Below are positions 1 to 6,924 of a stretch of 14,304 nucleotides of DNA, in pieces. The translations under genes were made by a program, and so were the position numbers. Origin of the DNA: a virus (taxonomy: Duplodnaviria > Heunggongvirae > Uroviricota > Caudoviricetes); the IMG/VR virus record IMGVR_UViG_2681813271_000007; one strand, given 5' to 3'. Each line of letters starts with the position of its first letter. Within the stretch, counting starts at the first letter, position 1. A model generated the notes under the pieces. It saw only the letters and a program-made list of their open reading frames with translations. It was not told the DNA's origin and ran no database searches.

Positions 1-90
1 CTCAGCAAATGATACATTGCCATGAGATAAATCATTACGATGTTGTTTAACAGTGGCTAATTTTTCACCATGTTTAGTGTGAGTGTTCAT
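1..90 (-). CDS. hypothetical small protein, 5' part only (continues beyond left edge); fourth gene of cargo cassette
   Basis: ATG at 90..88 on minus strand, in-frame stop one codon upstream; hand translation MNTHTKHGEKLATVKQHRNDLSHGNVSFAE open to window edge; overlaps end of upstream gene by 17 nt; AT-rich like neighbours; no clear SD. Confidence 0.35.
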   Translation of the reverse strand, partial: MNTHTKHGEKLATVKQHRNDLSHGNVSFAE

Positions 91-397
91 TTTTTAATCT
101 TTTTAATATTTCTGACCTGAGATTTTTCCTGAGTTTGTCAAATTCTACGTTTCTATCATAAATAGTCTCATGAATAAGGCAGATAGCTTCTCTCATTGTT
201 GATTCAATGAGGTTATATAACAGTATATATACTGCTCCCTTTAGAGTTTTTCGTGATTGAGCAGTAATGGAGAACTTATGTTCTTTATCATCAGCTGATA
301 TCAGTTCTGCACCGGCATACTCAATAAATTTCAAAAGATCCAAATAGGCCAAGATCTCTCCTGACCTTTCGTCAAAATCCTCACGAAAACGATCCAT
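74..397 (-). CDS. hypothetical protein (107 aa), third gene of cargo cassette
   Basis: ORF in track; strong SD (AGAGGA) 6-7 nt upstream of ATG embedded in end of upstream gene; stop-1nt-start junction (TAACATG) suggests translational coupling; AT-rich; no domain recognised. Confidence 0.6.
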   Translation of the reverse strand: MDRFREDFDERSGEILAYLDLLKFIEYAGAELISADDKEHKFSITAQSRKTLKGAVYILLYNLIESTMREAICLIHETIYDRNVEFDKLRKNLRSEILKRLKNEHSH

Positions 398-398
398 G

Positions 399-722
399 TT
401 AATCCTCTAATAATTTATCCCGAACATATTCAATTCGTTCAATTACCTTCACGCGACTATTAGCTCCGTCGGAAGTGGTCAATCGTTTGAATTCTTCTGA
501 GCTTAGCCAATCTAAGTTCTTGGGAACAAGGTCAGGGACTTCACGTAATGCAAGTGCTGCGCCAACAGCGAGAGATTCGAATCTAACTCGAGGTGTAGAT
601 TTTGCAGTAATAGTTTTCTTGAATCCTGCTGGGAAATAGTTTTCAACAAAAGATAGAACATTAGCAAACTCTTGTTTCATTGAGTTTTGTTTAGTTTCGT
701 CTATATCTCGATTTTCTGACAT
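399..722 (-). CDS. hypothetical protein (107 aa), possibly the C-terminal continuation of the DUF262 protein
   Basis: ORF in track; weak/no SD; its frame stays open upstream of the ATG all the way into the N run at 755..793 (..HSVRDFLNDY-M..). Confidence 0.5.
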   Translation of the reverse strand: MSENRDIDETKQNSMKQEFANVLSFVENYFPAGFKKTITAKSTPRVRFESLAVGAALALREVPDLVPKNLDWLSSEEFKRLTTSDGANSRVKVIERIEYVRDKLLED

Positions 723-726
723 ATAG

Positions 727-1587
727 TCATTTAGAAAATCCCGTACGGAATGATNNNNNNNNNNNNNNNNNNNNNNNNNNNNNNNNNNNNNNNTTGTACT
801 TATCTACGTAGGCAAAGAATCTTAATGTAAATTCTAACCGTTCATCTCGTTTTTCTTTAGTCTGAGATAAAGGTGCTAATTCTTTAAATTTAGGTATTGT
901 TGAGCATGGCTTAATAACCTGTGTATATAAATTTGTTGAACCAAGTTCTGATCCNNNNNNNNNNNNNNNNNNNNNNNNNNNNNNNNNNNNNNNNNNNNNN
1001 NNGCCAGAGTTAATACGCTCAAAAAGATCTCTACGGGTTTCTTCATTGCATTTAGAACTCAATTCTATAACGCGGACAGGAATTCTCATGAAACGACGTT
1101 GACGTGATAATGGTAAATCTTGGAATTTGAAACCATTAAGGACGTCTAAAGATTTCAGGTCTTGTAAAACTAATTCATTTTGGATAAAAGCGTGTATAGT
1201 CCTAACTCGTTGTGAGCCATCAACAATCTCAATTCGCCCATCTAAATCGGGATCTTCGGAGAGAACATCTGCTATAAATATATATGGTATAGGAAAACCC
1301 AAAATCAAAGACTCTATCAATTTTGATTGTCTTTTTTCACTCCAAACAAAATCCCTTTGATAATCAGGAACAAAGAGTTCGTTAGTATCATCCTCTAATC
1401 CGTTATGATACTTATTAACTAATAACTCAACGGTAAATTCTTTGGTCTCAAAATCCACATCCTTTTGCTCAGCACGAATTTGCTCTTCAGCGTTTTGCTT
1501 TATCACCTCTAGCTGAGCAAGCAACTCTGCTCTTTTCTTGGCATTATCTTCATTTTCTAGTTGAGATTTTAAATCAATAATGTCCAT
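727..1587 (-). CDS. DUF262 / ParB-like domain protein (GmrS-like N-terminal domain family), interrupted by two N runs
   Basis: Translation contains VPDYQRDFVW ... LILGFPIPYIFI ... IEIVDGSQRVRTIHAF ... FERINSG, matching the hallmark YQR..W and DGQQR-type motifs of DUF262; preceded by ~45 aa charged coiled-coil-like N-terminus; first ATG at 1587 with AAGGGAA SD 8 nt upstream (track ORF extends to TTG at 1605). Confidence 0.7.
   Translation of the reverse strand: MDIIDLKSQLENEDNAKKRAELLAQLEVIKQNAEEQIRAEQKDVDFETKEFTVELLVNKYHNGLEDDTNELFVPDYQRDFVWSEKRQSKLIESLILGFPIPYIFIADVLSEDPDLDGRIEIVDGSQRVRTIHAFIQNELVLQDLKSLDVLNGFKFQDLPLSRQRRFMRIPVRVIELSSKCNEETRRDLFERINSGXXXXXXXXXXXXXXXXGSELGSTNLYTQVIKPCSTIPKFKELAPLSQTKEKRDERLEFTLRFFAYVDKYXXXXXXXXXXXXXXSFRTGFSK
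755..793. other. run of 39 N (masked or unsequenced bases) inside DUF262 gene
   Basis: seen directly in sequence. Confidence 1.
955..1002. other. run of 48 N (masked or unsequenced bases) inside DUF262 gene
   Basis: seen directly in sequence. Confidence 1.
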
Positions 1588-1605
1588 GTCTAGTTCCCTT
1601 AACAA

Positions 1606-1772
1606 GTGTTAAAAATTGAAGCGGATAGCATACCGCATAGATCATGAAAAATGCCATCATGTGCATGGATTTGCATGCGTCAGAAGTCGCTTTTATTGTT
1701 AGTTATCACTAGCGCTGGCGTGCTCTTGGAGTGTTCATGCAACTGCATTAAAACCGCCCCATGAAGCGGGCG
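1606..1772 (-). promoter_or_regulatory. putative promoter/operator region of the cargo operon
   Basis: Non-coding gap between cos and first cargo gene; contains direct repeat TGCATG..TGCATG (1662..1677) and several CATG motifs; no convincing sigma70 -35/-10 pair found by eye. Confidence 0.25.
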
Positions 1773-1791
1773 GGCGAGGCGGGGAAAGCAC
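1773..1791. other. cos: P2-type cos site (19-nt cohesive end)
   Basis: Sequence GGCGAGGCGGGGAAAGCAC matches my recollection of the P2 cohesive end; lies just beyond the 3' end of portal gene Q as in P2. Confidence 0.6.
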
Positions 1792-1931
1792 TGCGCGCTG
1801 GCGGTGGTGCTGATTTTATTTTCCAGCGTCTCAGCGCGTCGTGACGGCGCTTAGTCTGCCCGTTGGGCGTTGGTGTGTCTGCGGGATTTTTTGTGCGGTG
1901 ATGAGCGTGTGAGGGCGTGATGGCGGGGTGT

Positions 1932-1953
1932 AAAAAAGCCGCCCGCAGGCGGC
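1932..1953 (-). terminator. rho-independent terminator downstream of Q
   Basis: GCCGCC-cgca-GGCGGC hairpin (1938..1953) followed on the minus strand by TTTTTT (1932..1937), 5 nt after the Q stop codon. Confidence 0.6.
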
Positions 1954-1958
1954 GATGT

Positions 1959-2993
1959 TCAGCCGTTGTCAGTGTCCAGTGAGTAGTTTTTAAAGCGGAT
2001 GACCTCCTGACCGAGCCAGCCGTTTATCTCGCGGATCCTGTCCTGTAACGGGATAAGCTCATTGCGGACAAAGACCTTTGCCACTTTCTCAATATCACCC
2101 AGCGACCCGACGTTCTCCGGCTTGCCCCCCATCAACTGAAAGGGGATGCGGTGCGCGTCCAGCAGGTCAGCGGCGCTGGCTTTTTTGATATTAAAAAAAT
2201 CGTCCTTCGTTGCCACTTCACTGAGCGGGATAATTTTAATGCCGTCGGCTTTCCCCTGTGGGGCATAGAGAAACAGATTTTTAAAGTTATTGCGGCCTTT
2301 CGACTTAACCATGTTTTCGCGAAGCATTTCGATATCGTTGCGATCCTGCACGGCATCGGTGACGTACATGATGTATCCGGCATGTGCGCCGTTTTCGTAA
2401 TACTTGCGGCGGAACAGCGTGGCCGACTCATTCAGCCATGCAGAGTTAAGGGCGCTGAGATATTCCGGCAGGCCGTACAGCTCCTGATTAATATCAGGCT
2501 CCAGCAGGTGAAACACGGAGCCGGGCGCGAAGGCTGTCGGCTCGTTGAAGGACGGCACCCACCAGTAAACATCCTCCTCCACGCCACGACGGGTATATTT
2601 GGCCGGTGAGGTTTCCAGTCTGATGACCTTACCGGTGGTGCTGTAACGCTTTTCCAGAAACGCATTACCGAACACCAGAAAATCCAGCACAAAACGGCTG
2701 AAATCCTGCTGGGAAAGCCACGGGTGCGGGATAAACGTTGAAGCCAGAATATTACGTTTGACGTAAATCGGTGAGCTGTGATGCACGGCAGCACGCAGGC
2801 TTTTTGCCAGACCGGTAAAGCTGACCGGCGGCTCATACCATCTGCCGTTACTGATGCACTCGACGTAATCCAGAATGTCACGGCGGTCGAGTACCGGCAC
2901 CGGCTCACCAAAGGTGAATGCTTCCATTTTCGGGGCGCTGGCGGTGATTGTTTTTGCCGCAGGTCGCGGTGTTTTCCCTTTTTTCTTGCTCAT
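1959..2993 (-). CDS. Q: portal (capsid portal) protein, P2 gpQ
   Basis: 344 aa, N-terminus MSKKKGKTPRPAAK.., size and position match P2 Q; start overlaps P stop (TGATG). Confidence 0.93.
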   Translation of the reverse strand: MSKKKGKTPRPAAKTITASAPKMEAFTFGEPVPVLDRRDILDYVECISNGRWYEPPVSFTGLAKSLRAAVHHSSPIYVKRNILASTFIPHPWLSQQDFSRFVLDFLVFGNAFLEKRYSTTGKVIRLETSPAKYTRRGVEEDVYWWVPSFNEPTAFAPGSVFHLLEPDINQELYGLPEYLSALNSAWLNESATLFRRKYYENGAHAGYIMYVTDAVQDRNDIEMLRENMVKSKGRNNFKNLFLYAPQGKADGIKIIPLSEVATKDDFFNIKKASAADLLDAHRIPFQLMGGKPENVGSLGDIEKVAKVFVRNELIPLQDRIREINGWLGQEVIRFKNYSLDTDNG

Positions 2994-4765
2994 CAGTAAA
3001 ACTCCAGAATGGTGGATGTCAGCGGAGTGCTGATACCGGCGGTGAGTGGCTCATTTAACAGGGCGTGCATGGTTGCCCAGGCGAGGTCGGCGTGGCTGGC
3101 TTCCTCGCTGCGGCTGGCCTCATAGGTGGCACTGCGTCCGCTGCTGGTCATGGTCTTGCGGATAGCCATGAACGAGCTGGTGATGTCGGTGGCGCTGACG
3201 TCATATTCCAGACAGCCACGGCGGATGACGTCTTTGGCCTTGAGCACCATTGCGGTTTTCATTTCCGGCGTGTAGCGGATATCGCGCGCGGCGGGATAGA
3301 ACGAGCGCACGAGCTGGAACACGCCGACACCGAGGCCGGTGGCATCAATACCGATGTATTCGACGTTGTATTTTTCGGTGAGTTTGCGGATGGACTCCGC
3401 CTGGGTGGCAAAGTCCATGCCTTTCCACTGGTGACGCTCAAGTATTCTGAATTTGCCACCGGCCACCACCGGCGGTGCCAGCACCACGCATCCGGCGCTG
3501 TCGCCACGGTGTGACGGGTCGTAACCAATCCATACCGGGCGGGAGCCGAACGGATTTGCGGCAAACGGCGCGTAGTCTTCCCATTCTTCCAGCGTGTCGA
3601 CCATGCAGCGTTGCAGCTCCTCGAACGGGAACACCGATACCTTGTCGTCAACAAATTCACACATGAACAGGTTTTTAAAATCGTCGGCGCTGTTTTCGCG
3701 TTTGAGCTGCTCAATGTCGAACAATGTGCAGCCGCCTTTCAGGGCGTCCTCAATGGTGACAATCTGCCGCCACTGGCCGTCCGCACAGAGAAGACCACCG
3801 GCAAGGGCGTTATGACTGACGTCGATTTCCACACGTTCGGCGGCGCTGGCGCGTCCCCGGTTGAACAGTTCACCCGACCAGAACGGGTAGGCGTCGTGCG
3901 CCAGCGTGGACGGGGTGGAGAAATAGGTCGAGCGCAGGTGACTCTGTGAGGCCATACCTGATGCCACCTTACGCAGTACCTGAAAATTCGGGATCCAGAA
4001 AATCTCGTCGACGTACAGGTCGCCGTTATGGCTCTGTGCGGTGTTGGAGTTGGTGCCGAGAAAAATCAGTTTTGCGCCGTTATTGCCCAGGACAATCGGG
4101 TCACCGGTCAGGTCAACGTCAACCAGACGAGCAAAGGCGATGATGTATTCACGGAACACATACGCCTGCGTTTTACTGGCCGACAGAAAAATCTGGTTAT
4201 GGCCGGTTTTCAGGGCGCGCAGCAGCGCCTCGCGGGAAAAATAAAACGTCGCGCCAATCTGGCGGGATTTCAGGATATCGCGGATGCGGTGCTCAAGCCC
4301 GGCACGATACCAGTGCAACTGATAGTCGAAAGACTGCTCAAAGAAAATCTGCTCCAGCTTTTCGATGGCCTCGTCACTGAAAAAATTCTTTTTCGGTTTG
4401 CGACGCCCGCCTTTGTTGCGGTTAGCGATGTTCGGATTAAGGTCTGCCTCGTTGCCGGTCTGGCTGTAGCGGTTTACCCGTGCCAGTCGTTCAATCTGGC
4501 GTCCGAGCAGGTCAATTTCCTTGAAGTCACCGCCGGTTTTCTGCGGTTTGATGATGAGCTGGGTCAGCCGCGCTTCCAGACTCATTTCGACACGGCTGAT
4601 GGGGGCAACACTGTCCCAGCCGTCGCGCTGTTTCCAGCTCTGCACCGTCGGGCGTTTCATCTGCAACATGGCGGCAATCTGCGGCACGGAAAACCCCTGC
4701 CAGTACAGCAGCGCCGCCTGACGACGCGGGTCGTGTAAAAGAGTGGTGTCTGTGGTGATGGTCAT
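2993..4765 (-). CDS. P: terminase large (ATPase) subunit, P2 gpP
   Basis: 590 aa from ATG at 4765 (MTITTDTTLL..) with GAGG SD; track ORF extends 10 codons further upstream; size/order match P2 P. Confidence 0.93.
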   Translation of the reverse strand: MTITTDTTLLHDPRRQAALLYWQGFSVPQIAAMLQMKRPTVQSWKQRDGWDSVAPISRVEMSLEARLTQLIIKPQKTGGDFKEIDLLGRQIERLARVNRYSQTGNEADLNPNIANRNKGGRRKPKKNFFSDEAIEKLEQIFFEQSFDYQLHWYRAGLEHRIRDILKSRQIGATFYFSREALLRALKTGHNQIFLSASKTQAYVFREYIIAFARLVDVDLTGDPIVLGNNGAKLIFLGTNSNTAQSHNGDLYVDEIFWIPNFQVLRKVASGMASQSHLRSTYFSTPSTLAHDAYPFWSGELFNRGRASAAERVEIDVSHNALAGGLLCADGQWRQIVTIEDALKGGCTLFDIEQLKRENSADDFKNLFMCEFVDDKVSVFPFEELQRCMVDTLEEWEDYAPFAANPFGSRPVWIGYDPSHRGDSAGCVVLAPPVVAGGKFRILERHQWKGMDFATQAESIRKLTEKYNVEYIGIDATGLGVGVFQLVRSFYPAARDIRYTPEMKTAMVLKAKDVIRRGCLEYDVSATDITSSFMAIRKTMTSSGRSATYEASRSEEASHADLAWATMHALLNEPLTAGISTPLTSTILEFY

Positions 4766-4938
4766 GAATACCTCGCCGTGATGAATACACGGCAAGGCTA
4801 CTGAGTCGCGCCCCGCGATTCGCTAATGTGCTGTTGTGTCAGTGATAAACCATCCGGGACTGATGGCGGAGGATGCGCATCGTCGGGAAACTGATGCCGA
4901 CATGTGACTCCTCTAATCACTATTCAGGACTCCTGACA
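4766..4938. promoter_or_regulatory. divergent late promoter region between P and O
   Basis: Intergenic region between divergently transcribed P and O, the position of the Ogr-dependent late promoters in P2; contains partial dyad TGTGA-N9-TCACT near 4905..4925; motif match imperfect. Confidence 0.4.
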
Positions 4939-5793
4939 ATGGCAAAAAAAGTCTCAAAATTCTTTCGTATCGGCGTTGAGGGTGACACCTGTGACGGGCG
5001 TGTCATCAGTGCGCAGGATATTCAGGAAATGGCCGAAACCTTTGACCCGCGTGTCTATGGTTGCCGCATTAACCTGGAACATCTGCGCGGCATCCTGCCT
5101 GACGGTATTTTTAAGCGTTATGGCGATGTGGCCGAACTGAAGGCCGAAAAGATTGACGATGATTCGGCGCTGAAAGGCAAATGGGCGCTGTTTGCGAAAA
5201 TCACCCCGACCGATGACCTTATCGCGATGAACAAGGCCGCGCAGAAGGTCTACACCTCAATGGAAATTCAGCCGAACTTTGCCAACACCGGCAAATGTTA
5301 TCTGGTGGGTCTGGCCGTCACCGATGACCCGGCAAGCCTCGGCACGGAATACCTGGAATTCTGCCGCACGGCAAAACACAACCCCCTGAACCGCTTCAAA
5401 TTAAGCCCTGAAAACCTGATTTCAGTGGCAACGCCTGTTGAGCTGGAATTTGAAGACCTGCCTGAAACCGTGTTCACCGCCCTGACCGAAAAGGTGAAAT
5501 CCATTTTTGGCCGCAAACAGGCCAGCGATGATGCCCGTCTGAATGACGTGCATGAAGCGGTGACCGCTGTTGCTGAACATGTGCAGGAAAAACTGAGCGC
5601 CACTGAGCAGCGCCTCGCTGAGATGGAAACCGCCTTTTCTGCACTTAAGCAGGAGGTGACTGACAGGGCGGATGAAACCAGCCAGGCATTCACCCGCCTG
5701 AAAAACAGTCTCGACCACACCGAAAGTCTGACCCAGCAGCGCCGCAGCAAGGCCACCGGTGGTGGCGGTGACGCCCTGATGACGAACTGCTGA
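4939..5793 (+). CDS. O: capsid scaffolding protein, P2 gpO
   Basis: 284 aa from ATG 4939 (MAKKVSKFFRIGVEGD..) with AGGA SD; size/order match P2 O. Confidence 0.92.
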   Translation: MAKKVSKFFRIGVEGDTCDGRVISAQDIQEMAETFDPRVYGCRINLEHLRGILPDGIFKRYGDVAELKAEKIDDDSALKGKWALFAKITPTDDLIAMNKAAQKVYTSMEIQPNFANTGKCYLVGLAVTDDPASLGTEYLEFCRTAKHNPLNRFKLSPENLISVATPVELEFEDLPETVFTALTEKVKSIFGRKQASDDARLNDVHEAVTAVAEHVQEKLSATEQRLAEMETAFSALKQEVTDRADETSQAFTRLKNSLDHTESLTQQRRSKATGGGGDALMTNC

Positions 5794-5851
5794 CCGGCGT
5801 CAGTCAGTCCGGGAAAACCTTCACGATTAACCCTTAATTTCAGGAAAAACT

Positions 5852-6924
5852 ATGCGCCAGGAAACCCGCTTTAAATTTAATGCTTACCTGTCCCGTGTTG
5901 CCGAGCTGAACGGCATCGACGCCGGTGATGTGTCGAAAAAATTCACCGTTGAACCGTCGGTCACCCAGACCCTGATGAACACCATGCAGGAGTCCTCTGA
6001 CTTTCTGACCCGCATCAACATTGTGCCGGTCAGTGAAATGAAAGGGGAAAAAATTGGCATCGGTGTCACCGGCTCCATCGCCAGCACCACCGACACCGCC
6101 GGTGGCACCGAGCGTCAGCCGAAGGACTTCTCGAAGCTGGCGTCAAACAAGTACGAATGCGACCAGGTTAACTTCGATTTTTATATCCGCTACAAAACGC
6201 TTGACCTGTGGGCGCGTTATCAGGATTTCCAGCTCCGTATCCGTAACGCCATTATCAAACGCCAGTCCCTTGATTTCATCATGGCCGGTTTTAACGGCGT
6301 GAAGCGTGCCGAAACCTCTGACCGCAACAGTAATCCGATGCTGCAGGATGTGGCGGTCGGCTGGCTGCAGAAATACCGAATGAAGCCCCGGCGCGCGTGA
6401 TGAGCAAGGTCACTGACGAGGAAGGCCGCACCACCTCTGAGGTTATCCGCGTGGGTAAGGGCGGTGATTATGTAAGCCTCGATGCACTGGTGATGGATGC
6501 GACCAACAACCTGATTGAACCTTGGTATCAGGAAGACCCTGACCTTGTGGTGATTGTGGGGCGTCAGCTACTGGCGGACAAGTATTTCCCTATCGTCAAC
6601 AAGGAGCAGGATAACAGCGAGATGCTGGCCGCTGACGTCATCATCAGCCAGAAACGCATCGGTAACCTGCCGGCGGTACGCGTCCCGTACTTCCCGGCGG
6701 ATGCGATGCTCATCACGAAGCTGGAAAACCTGTCCATCTACTACATGGATGACAGCCATCGCCGCGTGATTGTGGAAAACCCGAAACTCGACCGCGTGGA
6801 GAACTACGAGTCAATGAACATTGATTACGTGGTGGAGGACTACGCCGCCGGTTGTCTGGTGGAAAAAATTAAGGTCGGTGATTTCTCCACACCGGCTAAA
6901 GCGACCGCAGAGCCGGGAGCGTAA
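5852..6924 (+). pseudogene. N: major capsid protein P2 gpN, disrupted by a -1 frameshift near 6378..6381 (fragments 5852..6400 and 6397..6924)
   Basis: Two adjacent ORFs of 182 and 175 aa in different frames, overlapping by 4 nt; together 357 aa, the expected size of P2 N; upstream frame ends ..GWLQKYR then MKPRRA-stop, downstream frame reads NEAPARVMSKVTDE.. Confidence 0.75.

What the first reader, a model, noticed from the sequence alone, without database searches (positions are those of the whole stretch)
727..1605. DUF262/ParB-like protein with an unusual charged N-terminal extension
The translation shows the canonical DUF262 motifs (PDYQRDFVW, then IEIVDGSQRVRTI, then FERINSG). This domain is the NTPase/DNA-binding module of GmrSD type IV restriction enzymes and SspE-like defence proteins. 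Here it is preceded by about 45 residues of charged, coiled-coil-like sequence, and no DUF1524/HNH nuclease partner is visible within the window. The effector may therefore be one of the small downstream proteins or lie beyond the left edge.
Basis: partly seen in the sequence, partly recalled or inferred. Interest (0 to 1): 0.7.

Follow-up and report, generated by a model that had tools for sequence, protein, structure and literature searches.

The report
Prophage DUF262–HEPN–methylase defence cassette
The flagged gene is a real ParB-like (DUF262) DNA-sensor protein whose partners are a HEPN nuclease gene directly behind it and a cytosine methylase just beyond the window edge; together they form a widespread, already catalogued but mechanistically unstudied anti-phage cassette carried by a P2-type prophage.

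Summary

A contig that is 100% identical outside the gaps (L092) has both genes intact. It also has a convergent C5-cytosine methylase, then P2 gene A. The cassette lies beside cos, in the known P2 defence hotspot.

Across 158 loci from many phyla, HEPN follows DUF262 in 152. An m5C methylase is adjacent in 142.

This operon type was noted computationally in 2013. Its closest validated relative is PD-T4-2. The N-terminal helix is a family feature, not an oddity.

Most likely it works like a restriction-modification system: the methylase marks self DNA, the DUF262 NTPase senses DNA, and HEPN is the effector. This mechanism is inferred, not shown.

Verdict: a new member of a known kind, of modest interest.

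The parts
399..1587 (-). Gene for a 380-aa DUF262/ParB-like NTPase with a helical C-terminal (ParBDB-like) domain. In this contig it is interrupted by two N-gaps.
1453..1587 (-). N-terminal charged helical extension (residues 1-45).
   Evidence: AlphaFold2 models helices 3-12 and 16-40 at pLDDT 86-90. The extension is conserved in relatives of 59% identity or more; E34, R38 and Q41 are nearly invariant. Residues of about 30 onward are conserved in distant loci.
1003..1416 (-). DUF262/ParB-like core, with PDYQRDFVW, the DGSQR variant of the DGQQR NTPase motif, and FERINSG.
   Evidence: D123, G124, S125, Q126 and R127 are invariant in 31 homologues. The motif aligns with DGQQR of a solved DUF262 protein.
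955..1002 (.). Assembly gap: 48 N standing for 33 nt (SDILKDMEVRK).
755..793 (.). Assembly gap: 39 N standing for 8 nt. It shifts the apparent frame and creates the false stop at 727.
1..397 (-). 5' two-thirds of the MAE_28990-family HEPN nuclease gene. It starts 1 nt after the DUF262 stop. About 161 nt are missing between 87 and 86. The Rx4H motif (RNDLSHG) lies at about 13-33, out of frame in this contig. The gene runs off the contig end.
   Evidence: Pfam PF18737 at E 1.2e-9 on the fragment and 2.8e-29 on the intact relative. The intact 226-aa protein is in L092. R174, N175, H179 and G180 are invariant.
1588..1772 (-). Leader and probable promoter region between cos and the DUF262 start.
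   Evidence: Sequence. The consensus scan found no convincing promoter here. An AAGGGA Shine-Dalgarno-like element lies upstream of the ATG (read).
1773..1791 (+). P2 cos 19-mer. It marks the cassette as the first cargo next to the cohesive end, at the 'old/tin' hotspot.
   Evidence: Exact match; 0 of 200 shuffles give a match. The identity of the 19-mer as P2 cos comes from my own knowledge.
1959..2993 (-). P2-type portal gene (Q), the conserved flank of the hotspot.

Best explanation
Window 1-1587(-) is the first two genes of a three-gene, restriction-modification-like anti-phage cassette. The genes are DUF262/ParB-like NTPase, then a MAE_28990 HEPN nuclease, then a convergent C5-cytosine DNA methyltransferase (off-window). 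A P2-type prophage carries it as low-GC cargo between cos/portal and replication gene A.

Proposed mechanism:
1. The methylase marks a specific site in resident DNA.
2. The DUF262 protein (ParB-like NTP-binding core with DGSQR, plus a helical DNA-binding C-domain) scans DNA and reports incoming DNA with the wrong methylation state.
3. It switches on its tightly co-evolving partner, a HEPN Rx4H nuclease. That nuclease most likely cuts RNA and stops the infection.

Shown: gene identities, intactness in an identical contig, operon structure, and conserved three-gene linkage. Inferred: who senses what, the methylase as self-marker, and the HEPN substrate.
For: Identity of the parts:
- Pfam PF03235, PF18737/PF18735 and PF00145.
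- Invariant DGSQR and Rx4H motifs.
- The methylase carries the FCGAGG, PCQ, ENV, QNR and GNAVP motifs.

Intact cassette: L092 is 100% identical to the window outside the gaps and encodes 380-aa, 226-aa and 340-aa proteins, then gene A. RefSeq annotates the same trio in E. coli.

Operon: there is a 1-nt gap between the DUF262 stop and the HEPN start.

Linkage across 158 loci:
- HEPN is directly downstream in 152. Four others are contig ends.
- The methylase is adjacent in 142: 115 convergent, 25 upstream co-directional, 2 downstream co-directional.
- The trio recurs in cyanobacteria, Bacteroidota, Planctomycetota, Acidobacteriota, Burkholderia, Vibrionaceae, P2-like phage P24B2 and Moraxella phages.

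Co-evolution: pairwise distances correlate at r 0.90 for DUF262-HEPN and r 0.58 for DUF262-methylase. In each case 0 of 300 permutations reach the observed value.

Defence context:
- GC is 30-36% against 55-60% in the rest of the prophage.
- The position next to cos is the P2 hotspot that holds old/tin and many validated systems (PMC9519451).

Precedent:
- PD-T4-2 ('DUF262, HEPN') protects against T4.
- In SspE, sensing of the host DNA modification drives the DUF262 NTPase, which switches on the attached nicking domain (review PMC10952713).
Against: - No experiment exists on this subfamily.
- PD-T4-2 was cloned as two genes without a methylase and was tolerated in K-12. That is not expected if unmethylated self DNA triggers the pair.
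- Four loci with sequence on both sides lack any adjacent methylase: L076, L149, L153 and L162.
- P24B2 has a frameshifted methylase next to intact DUF262 and HEPN genes.
- Known DUF262 sensors (GmrSD, BrxU, SspE, probably Dazbog) recognise modified, not unmodified, DNA.
- The HEPN fold was not confirmed by structure search.
- The methylase itself is outside the window.
Confidence: 0.55

Rival explanations
1. Two-pronged PrrC-like model (Anantharaman 2013). The DUF262/ParB-like protein is itself the restriction DNase that cuts unmethylated DNA. HEPN is a latent suicide RNase held in check by it and released only when a phage blocks restriction.
For: - This is the published inference for HEPN genes in R-M neighbourhoods.
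- The same conserved trio fits this model.
- Strong DUF262-HEPN co-evolution fits a physical complex.
- A PADLOC 'Type II restriction enzyme' profile of similar length (372 positions) hits these DUF262 proteins at up to 1e-12.
Against: - In characterised relatives the DUF262 domain is an NTPase or sensor, and cleavage is done by a separate DUF1524/HNH domain that is absent here.
- No nuclease-type hit was found for the C-terminal domain.
Confidence: 0.2
2. Modification-dependent (type IV-like) system. The DUF262 protein senses hypermodified phage DNA such as glc-hmC of T-even phages and activates HEPN. The neighbouring methylase is not the self-marker; it could be an anti-restriction or epigenetic gene of the mobile element.
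For: - GmrSD and BrxU recognise modified phage DNA; SspE (which senses the host's phosphorothioate mark) and probably Dazbog also sense modified DNA.
- PD-T4-2 protects against T4 and other T-even phages and worked without a methylase.
- A few loci lack the methylase.
Against: - An orthologous m5C methylase is adjacent in 142 of about 148 assessable loci, across many phyla and in three gene orders. That is hard to explain without functional coupling.
- Methylase distances correlate with those of DUF262 and HEPN.
Confidence: 0.15
3. In this particular genome the cassette is a decaying pseudogene remnant. On this reading the frame shift in DUF262 and the 161-nt loss in HEPN are real lesions.
For: - As written, the contig interrupts both genes.
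- The prophage's capsid gene N carries a 1-nt deletion, so the prophage may be defective.
Against: - L092, from another assembly, is 100% identical on all non-N segments and has both genes intact.
- The exact 380-aa and 226-aa proteins occur on 798 and 678 contigs.
- The interruptions coincide with scaffold N-gaps in a draft assembly, and many 'partial' calls of these low-GC genes exist in Shigella sonnei drafts.
Confidence: 0.05
4. It is a bona fide member of Menshen (NsnA) or of GmrSD/SspE, with the other components encoded elsewhere.
For: The best PADLOC hit is NsnA, at 183 bits and full length. The DUF262 fold matches BrxU and SspE.
Against: - No NsnB ATPase or NsnC gene, and no DUF1524 domain, was found in the window, in L092/L001 or in 158 related loci. 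HEPN is the constant neighbour instead.
Confidence: 0.02

Closest known systems
ParB(DUF262)-MAE_28990 HEPN-DNA methylase operon type (Anantharaman et al. 2013, Biol Direct 8:15, Table 1)
   Same: It has the same three components: a Pfam PF18737 HEPN with Rx4H, an adjacent ParB-like DUF262 gene and an adjacent DNA methylase. Microcystis aeruginosa, source of the name-giving MAE_28990, is among the related loci (L040 and L052).
   Different: Nothing essential differs. That description is purely computational and gives no mechanism or phenotype. Here the cassette rides in a P2 prophage hotspot.
PD-T4-2 (Vassallo et al. 2022, E. coli ECOR65; 'DUF262, HEPN')
   Same: It is a two-gene DUF262 then HEPN operon in E. 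coli. The A protein is homologous over its full length (PADLOC PD-T4-2_A, 119 bits, profile 55-355 of 363). HHpred on the B protein hit the same Pfam HEPN families, PF18735 and PF18737. It is a validated anti-T4 defence.
   Different: - The B protein here is 226 aa against a 168-position profile, and it does not hit PD-T4-2_B at E<=0.01.
- The A protein scores higher on NsnA than on PD-T4-2_A.
- PD-T4-2 was cloned and works without a methylase, whereas this subfamily almost always has one.
Menshen NsnA (Millman 2022; Nucleic Acids Res 2025, gkaf357)
   Same: It has the same architecture of ParB-DUF262 plus a C-terminal helical 'ParBDB' DNA-binding domain. The full-length PADLOC NsnA hit is 183 bits and includes part of the N-terminal helix.
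   Different: There is no NsnB ABC-ATPase and no NsnC effector. The partner is a HEPN nuclease and a methylase.
GmrSD / BrxU / SspE type IV-like enzymes
   Different: There is no DUF1524/HNH nuclease domain and the protein is 380 aa against 560-800 aa. The effector is a separate HEPN protein. The cassette is linked to an m5C methylase rather than acting alone or with a phosphorothioation system.
P2 old/tin locus (P2 defence hotspot #1)
   Same: It occupies the same genomic slot, between cos/portal Q and replication gene A. It is low-GC cargo.
   Different: The gene content is unrelated.

Membership tests
GmrSD family (type IV restriction) | N-terminal DUF262 (PF03235) ParB-like NTPase domain | tested here: met
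GmrSD family (type IV restriction) | C-terminal DUF1524 His-Me/HNH nuclease domain | tested here: not met
   Only PF03235 was found on the 380-aa protein. The C-terminal half is an all-helical domain. No neighbouring gene carries DUF1524.
GmrSD family (type IV restriction) | DGQQR nucleotide-hydrolysis motif | tested here: inconclusive
   The motif is present as DGSQR and is invariant in 31 homologues. It aligns to DGQQR of a solved DUF262 protein. The effect of the Q-to-S change is unknown.
SspABCD-SspE | Phosphorothioation genes nearby and a DUF1524 domain | tested here: not met
   The neighbours are HEPN, an m5C methylase and P2 genes. PADLOC SspE hits are 19 bits or less and cover the N-terminal motif only.
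PD-T4-2 | A component: DUF262 protein of about 363 aa | tested here: met
   PADLOC PD-T4-2_A at E 5e-35 and 119 bits; residues 73-371 align to profile 55-355 of 363.
PD-T4-2 | B component: short HEPN protein matching PD-T4-2_B | tested here: not met
   No PADLOC hit for the 226-aa HEPN protein at E<=0.01. Only a marginal 0.007 hit for one distant relative. The Pfam HEPN families are the same as those reported for PD-T4-2B, so homology at superfamily level is likely.
PD-T4-2 | Protection against T4 and other T-even phages | not testable with these tools
   Needs plaque assays.
Menshen (NsnABC) | NsnA-like ParB-DUF262 plus ParBDB protein | tested here: met
   PADLOC NsnA at E 2e-54 and 183 bits; residues 25-374 align to profile 23-376 of 385.
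Menshen (NsnABC) | Adjacent NsnB ABC-ATPase and NsnC effector | tested here: not met
   Both are absent from the window, L001 and L092. The constant neighbour in 152 of 158 loci is HEPN.
ParB-MAE_28990 HEPN-methylase operon (Anantharaman 2013) | MAE_28990-family HEPN with a conserved Rx4-6H motif | tested here: met
   PF18737 at E 2.8e-29. R174, N175, L177, H179 and G180 are invariant in 33 homologues. RNDLSHG is visible at the window's left end.
ParB-MAE_28990 HEPN-methylase operon (Anantharaman 2013) | Adjacent ParB-like (DUF262) gene | tested here: met
   1-nt intergenic gap. HEPN follows DUF262 in 152 of 158 loci.
ParB-MAE_28990 HEPN-methylase operon (Anantharaman 2013) | Adjacent DNA methylase gene | tested here: met
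   The methylase is not in the window because the contig ends. It is present in identical L092 (6858-7880, minus strand) and in L001 (PF00145, E 4e-58), and in 142 of 158 loci.
Classical type II restriction-modification | Endonuclease that cleaves the unmethylated form of the site modified by the cognate methylase | not testable with these tools
   Only indirect evidence: the conserved methylase linkage and weak-to-moderate hits to a PADLOC REase_II profile (21 bits here, up to 1e-12 in relatives).
P2 hotspot #1 cargo | Located between portal Q/cos and replication endonuclease A of a P2-like prophage | tested here: met
   cos lies at 1773-1791 and the portal gene at 1959-2993. Gene A follows the methylase in L092 and L001.

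The most novel reading that the evidence does not exclude
The trio is a restriction-modification system whose 'restriction' arm is not a DNase. A ParB-like NTPase clamp reads the m5C state of incoming DNA and, on finding unmethylated sites, licenses a HEPN RNase. DNA methylation would then gate an RNA-targeting, abortive-infection response. This would also explain how PD-T4-2-type pairs work, and it would be a new logic for self/non-self discrimination.
Probability: 0.3. Interest if true: 0.7.

Novelty: new member of a known kind. Interest (0 to 1): 0.35.

Why it matters
DUF262-HEPN pairs such as PD-T4-2 are validated anti-phage systems with no known mechanism. The near-obligate link to an orthologous m5C methylase in this larger subfamily (142 of about 148 assessable loci) gives a concrete, testable hypothesis: methylation-gated activation of a HEPN nuclease by a ParB-like NTPase.

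The cassette is common in Enterobacteriaceae prophages. The exact proteins occur on about 700-800 public contigs, many of them Shigella sonnei or E. coli. PADLOC v2 profiles do not classify it as a system.

For annotation practice, the case shows how scaffold N-gaps of wrong length turn two genes into four.

Tried and rejected
- NCBIfam scan: no family for any of the five protein pieces.
- PDB sequence searches: nothing closer than marginal DUF262 N-motif hits, and none for HEPN.
- Locating the PD-T4-2 locus of ECOR65, to see whether it has a methylase. tblastn against deposited phages found no PD-T4-2-like P2 phage. PADLOC on methylase-less relatives showed they are not closer to PD-T4-2.
- Inferring the methylase target site. 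PDB homology (M.HaeIII N-half, DNMT1 C-half) does not give specificity, so I dropped this.
- Promoter scan upstream of the gene: no better than shuffles.
- Rfam: no RNA family in the window.
- I first read the 161-nt loss and the frame shift as real pseudogenisation. I rejected this after finding identical intact L092 and learning that the window is a draft contig.
- I also considered deliberate masking as the cause of the N-runs. They are scaffold gaps present in the public record.

Full report
**1. What is in the sequence**

The window is a P2-type prophage segment. On the minus strand it carries portal Q (1959-2993) and terminase P. On the plus strand it carries the scaffold, capsid, small terminase, head completion, lysis and tail genes. 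The left 1.6 kb has 30-36% GC, against 55-60% elsewhere.

The stretch 1003-1587 matches Pfam GmrSD_N/DUF262 at E 3.4e-24. The DUF262 observation is therefore real and well beyond chance.

**2. The gene model is wrong because of the assembly**

- There are N-runs at 755-793 (39 N) and 955-1002 (48 N).
- An E. coli relative (L001, NZ_CP024223, about 98% identical) has 8 nt and 33 nt at those places, plus 161 nt that are absent between window 86 and 87.
- A viral contig, L092 (IMGVR_UViG_2558860170_000011), is 100% identical to the window over every non-N segment: 1003-6587, 794-954, 86-754 and 1-86. It also has the 33 nt, the 8 nt and the roughly 161 nt.
- In L092 the DUF262 gene is one ORF of 380 aa (MDIIDLK...LLED). 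A 226-aa ORF follows after a single base.
- Exact-sequence look-ups show that the window is the entire draft contig CXCM01000103.1 of GCA_001256555.1. There the 107-aa ORF 399-722 was deposited as a separate 'uncharacterised protein' of Shigella sonnei.
- The exact intact 380-aa and 226-aa proteins occur on 798 and 678 public contigs.

Consequences:
- The stop at 727 and the 'four genes' are scaffold-gap artefacts.
- The true DUF262 gene is 399-1587(-).
- ORF 399-722 is its C-terminus.
- ORF 74-397 is the 5' part of the next gene.

**3. The two genes**

*DUF262 protein.*
- Pfam finds only PF03235, at residues 63-206. There is no DUF1524.
- PADLOC gives full-length hits to NsnA of Menshen (183 bits) and PD-T4-2_A (119 bits). 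Hits to BrxU-like HEC-05, HEC-06 and SspE cover only the N-terminal motif.
- AlphaFold2 on 31 homologues gives pLDDT 82.7. The model has helices 3-12 and 16-40, a ParB-like alpha/beta core at about 50-180, and an all-helical C-domain at 182-378.
- The NTPase motif is DGSQR, invariant in 31 homologues. It aligns with DGQQR of a solved DUF262 protein.

*Downstream protein.*
- It is a MAE_28990/MAE_18760-family HEPN: PF18737 at E 2.8e-29 and PF18735 at E 8.5e-9. RefSeq names it accordingly.
- R174, N175, L177, H179 and G180 (Rx4H) are invariant in 33 homologues.
- Its AlphaFold2 model is confident (pLDDT 91) and all-helical. Foldseek gave no informative match.

**4. The N-terminal extension**

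By my count from the translation, 19 of residues 1-45 are charged, and the segment is modelled as helix. All homologues from 100% down to 59% identity are about 380 aa and cover 98-100% of the query. E34, R38 and Q41 are nearly invariant. The NsnA profile aligns from residue 25. Distant relatives usually align from about residue 30, while the P24B2 and Moraxella-phage proteins are shorter at the very tip. The extension is a family feature, variable in its first 25-30 residues. Its role, such as dimerisation or contact with HEPN, was not testable here.

**5. The partner that the window does not show**

In L092 and L001 a convergent C5-cytosine methyltransferase follows HEPN. It is 340 aa, matches PF00145 at E 4e-58, and has all catalytic motifs. 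P2 replication gene A comes next.

The same trio appears in:
- Pseudomaricurvus, Photobacterium and Methylomonas;
- the P2-like phage P24B2, where DUF262 is 45% identical and the methylase 72-76% identical but frameshifted;
- nine Moraxella phages.

I scanned one genome per species and IMG/VR with the protein alignment and obtained 158 loci. I then searched them with my own profiles.

| Feature | Count among 158 loci |
|---|---|
| HEPN directly downstream of DUF262 | 152 |
| HEPN not assessable (contig end) | 4 |
| HEPN absent despite room (L042, L114) | 2 |
| Methylase adjacent, total | 142 |
| Methylase convergent downstream | 115 |
| Methylase upstream, co-directional | 25 |
| Methylase downstream, co-directional | 2 |
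| Methylase slightly displaced (L034, L164) | 2 |
| Methylase not assessable (contig end) | 10 |
| Methylase truly absent (L076, L149, L153, L162) | 4 |

The hosts span Enterobacterales, Methylococcales, Vibrionaceae, many cyanobacteria (including Microcystis aeruginosa), Bacteroidota, Planctomycetota, Acidobacteriota and Burkholderia.

On 125 non-identical trios, pairwise distances correlate as follows:
- DUF262-HEPN, r 0.90
- DUF262-methylase, r 0.58
- HEPN-methylase, r 0.59

In each case 0 of 300 permutations reach the observed value. Relatedness inflates such numbers, so I take them only as support for co-inheritance as a unit.

**6. Genomic setting**

The exact P2 cos 19-mer lies at 1773-1791 (its identity as P2 cos is from my own knowledge). 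The cassette is thus the first cargo next to the cohesive end, between cos/portal and gene A. This is the old/tin slot, described as a P2 defence hotspot (PMC9519451). Nine of 5,426 complete E. coli genomes carry the cassette there.

**7. Mechanism**

*Shown:*
- a translationally coupled DUF262-HEPN operon;
- active-site motifs conserved in both proteins and in the methylase;
- near-obligate three-gene linkage in three gene orders.

*Inferred:*
- The methylase marks self DNA.
- The DUF262 protein, with its ParB-like NTP switch and helical DNA-binding domain (called ParBDB in NsnA), discriminates DNA by methylation state.
- HEPN is the effector, most likely an RNase as in other HEPN defence proteins.

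*Main rivals:*
- The published PrrC-like model has DUF262 as the DNase and HEPN as back-up suicide RNase.
- A type IV-like model has DUF262 sensing modified phage DNA. It is favoured by GmrSD, BrxU and Dazbog, and by PD-T4-2 working against T-even phages without a methylase.
- The methylase-less loci and the frameshifted P24B2 methylase keep that second rival alive.

**8. Comparison with known systems**

- PD-T4-2 is the closest validated system. The A component is homologous. The B component is HEPN of the same Pfam families but is not matched by the PD-T4-2_B profile.
- It is not GmrSD or SspE, because there is no DUF1524.
- It is not Menshen, because there is no NsnB or NsnC.
- I found no paper in the library that characterises the three-gene form.

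**9. Verdict**

The finding is a correct domain call on a mis-delimited gene. The object is a member of a known, annotated, widely distributed but mechanistically unexplored defence cassette. Interest is modest. The useful lead is the methylase linkage as a handle on how DUF262-HEPN systems tell self from non-self.

Noticed in passing
window 755-793, 955-1002 and the 86|87 junction: The N-runs (39 and 48 N) stand for 8 and 33 nt. About 161 nt are silently missing between 86 and 87, relative to the otherwise 100% identical contig L092. The window is the whole draft contig CXCM01000103.1 (GCA_001256555.1). These defects split two genes into four deposited or mechanical ORFs.
   Followed up: yes
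window 6378/6379 (capsid gene N, ORFs 5852-6400 and 6397-6924): The P2 major capsid gene has a 1-nt deletion (CCGCAATG to CCGAATG) relative to L001, which splits it into 182-aa and 175-aa ORFs. The same base is missing in the independent contig L092. The prophage may therefore be genuinely defective while still keeping the defence cassette.
   Followed up: partly
window 1773-1791 (+): This is an exact match to the 19-nt P2 cohesive-end (cos) sequence. GC-rich hairpin/T-run terminator-like sites flank it at 1754-1773 and 1938-1953.
   Followed up: partly
phage records H63-H114 (e.g. RB49, JSE, KP15, Matisse): Many T4-like coliphages and Klebsiella phages encode short proteins that match only residues about 52-193 of the DUF262 protein at about 30% identity. 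These are stand-alone DUF262 domains in lytic phages. They could be decoys or counter-defence, but I did not examine them.
   Followed up: no
L007 about 2361-2365 (Peduovirus P24B2): The cassette's methylase is full length by tblastn (72-76% identity) but changes frame at about residue 227. It is annotated as a 234-aa protein, while DUF262 and HEPN are intact. This is either a sequencing error or a natural methylase-defective cassette, which would bear on the R-M model.
   Followed up: partly
L034 6169-7649; L163 and L164; L149 6842-7366: Several loci have odd architectures. The Okeania locus L034 has three consecutive HEPN ORFs before the methylase. In L163 and L164 the methylase is co-directional and overlaps the HEPN ORF, so it may be a fusion or a frameshift. 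L149 has a second DUF262 fragment downstream instead of a methylase.
   Followed up: no
L001 10233-11252 (-), the cassette methylase: The C-terminal third of the methylase (residues about 210-338) finds eukaryotic DNMT1 as its best solved relatives (E about 6e-20). The N-terminal half finds M.HaeIII. No target specificity could be derived.
   Followed up: no
PADLOC profile PDLC03418 'REase_II' against L153, L162 and L076 DUF262 proteins: A 372-position 'Type II restriction enzyme' profile matches these DUF262 proteins at up to E 1e-12. This suggests that some REBASE-derived restriction enzyme family is itself DUF262-like. I could not identify which enzyme.
   Followed up: no
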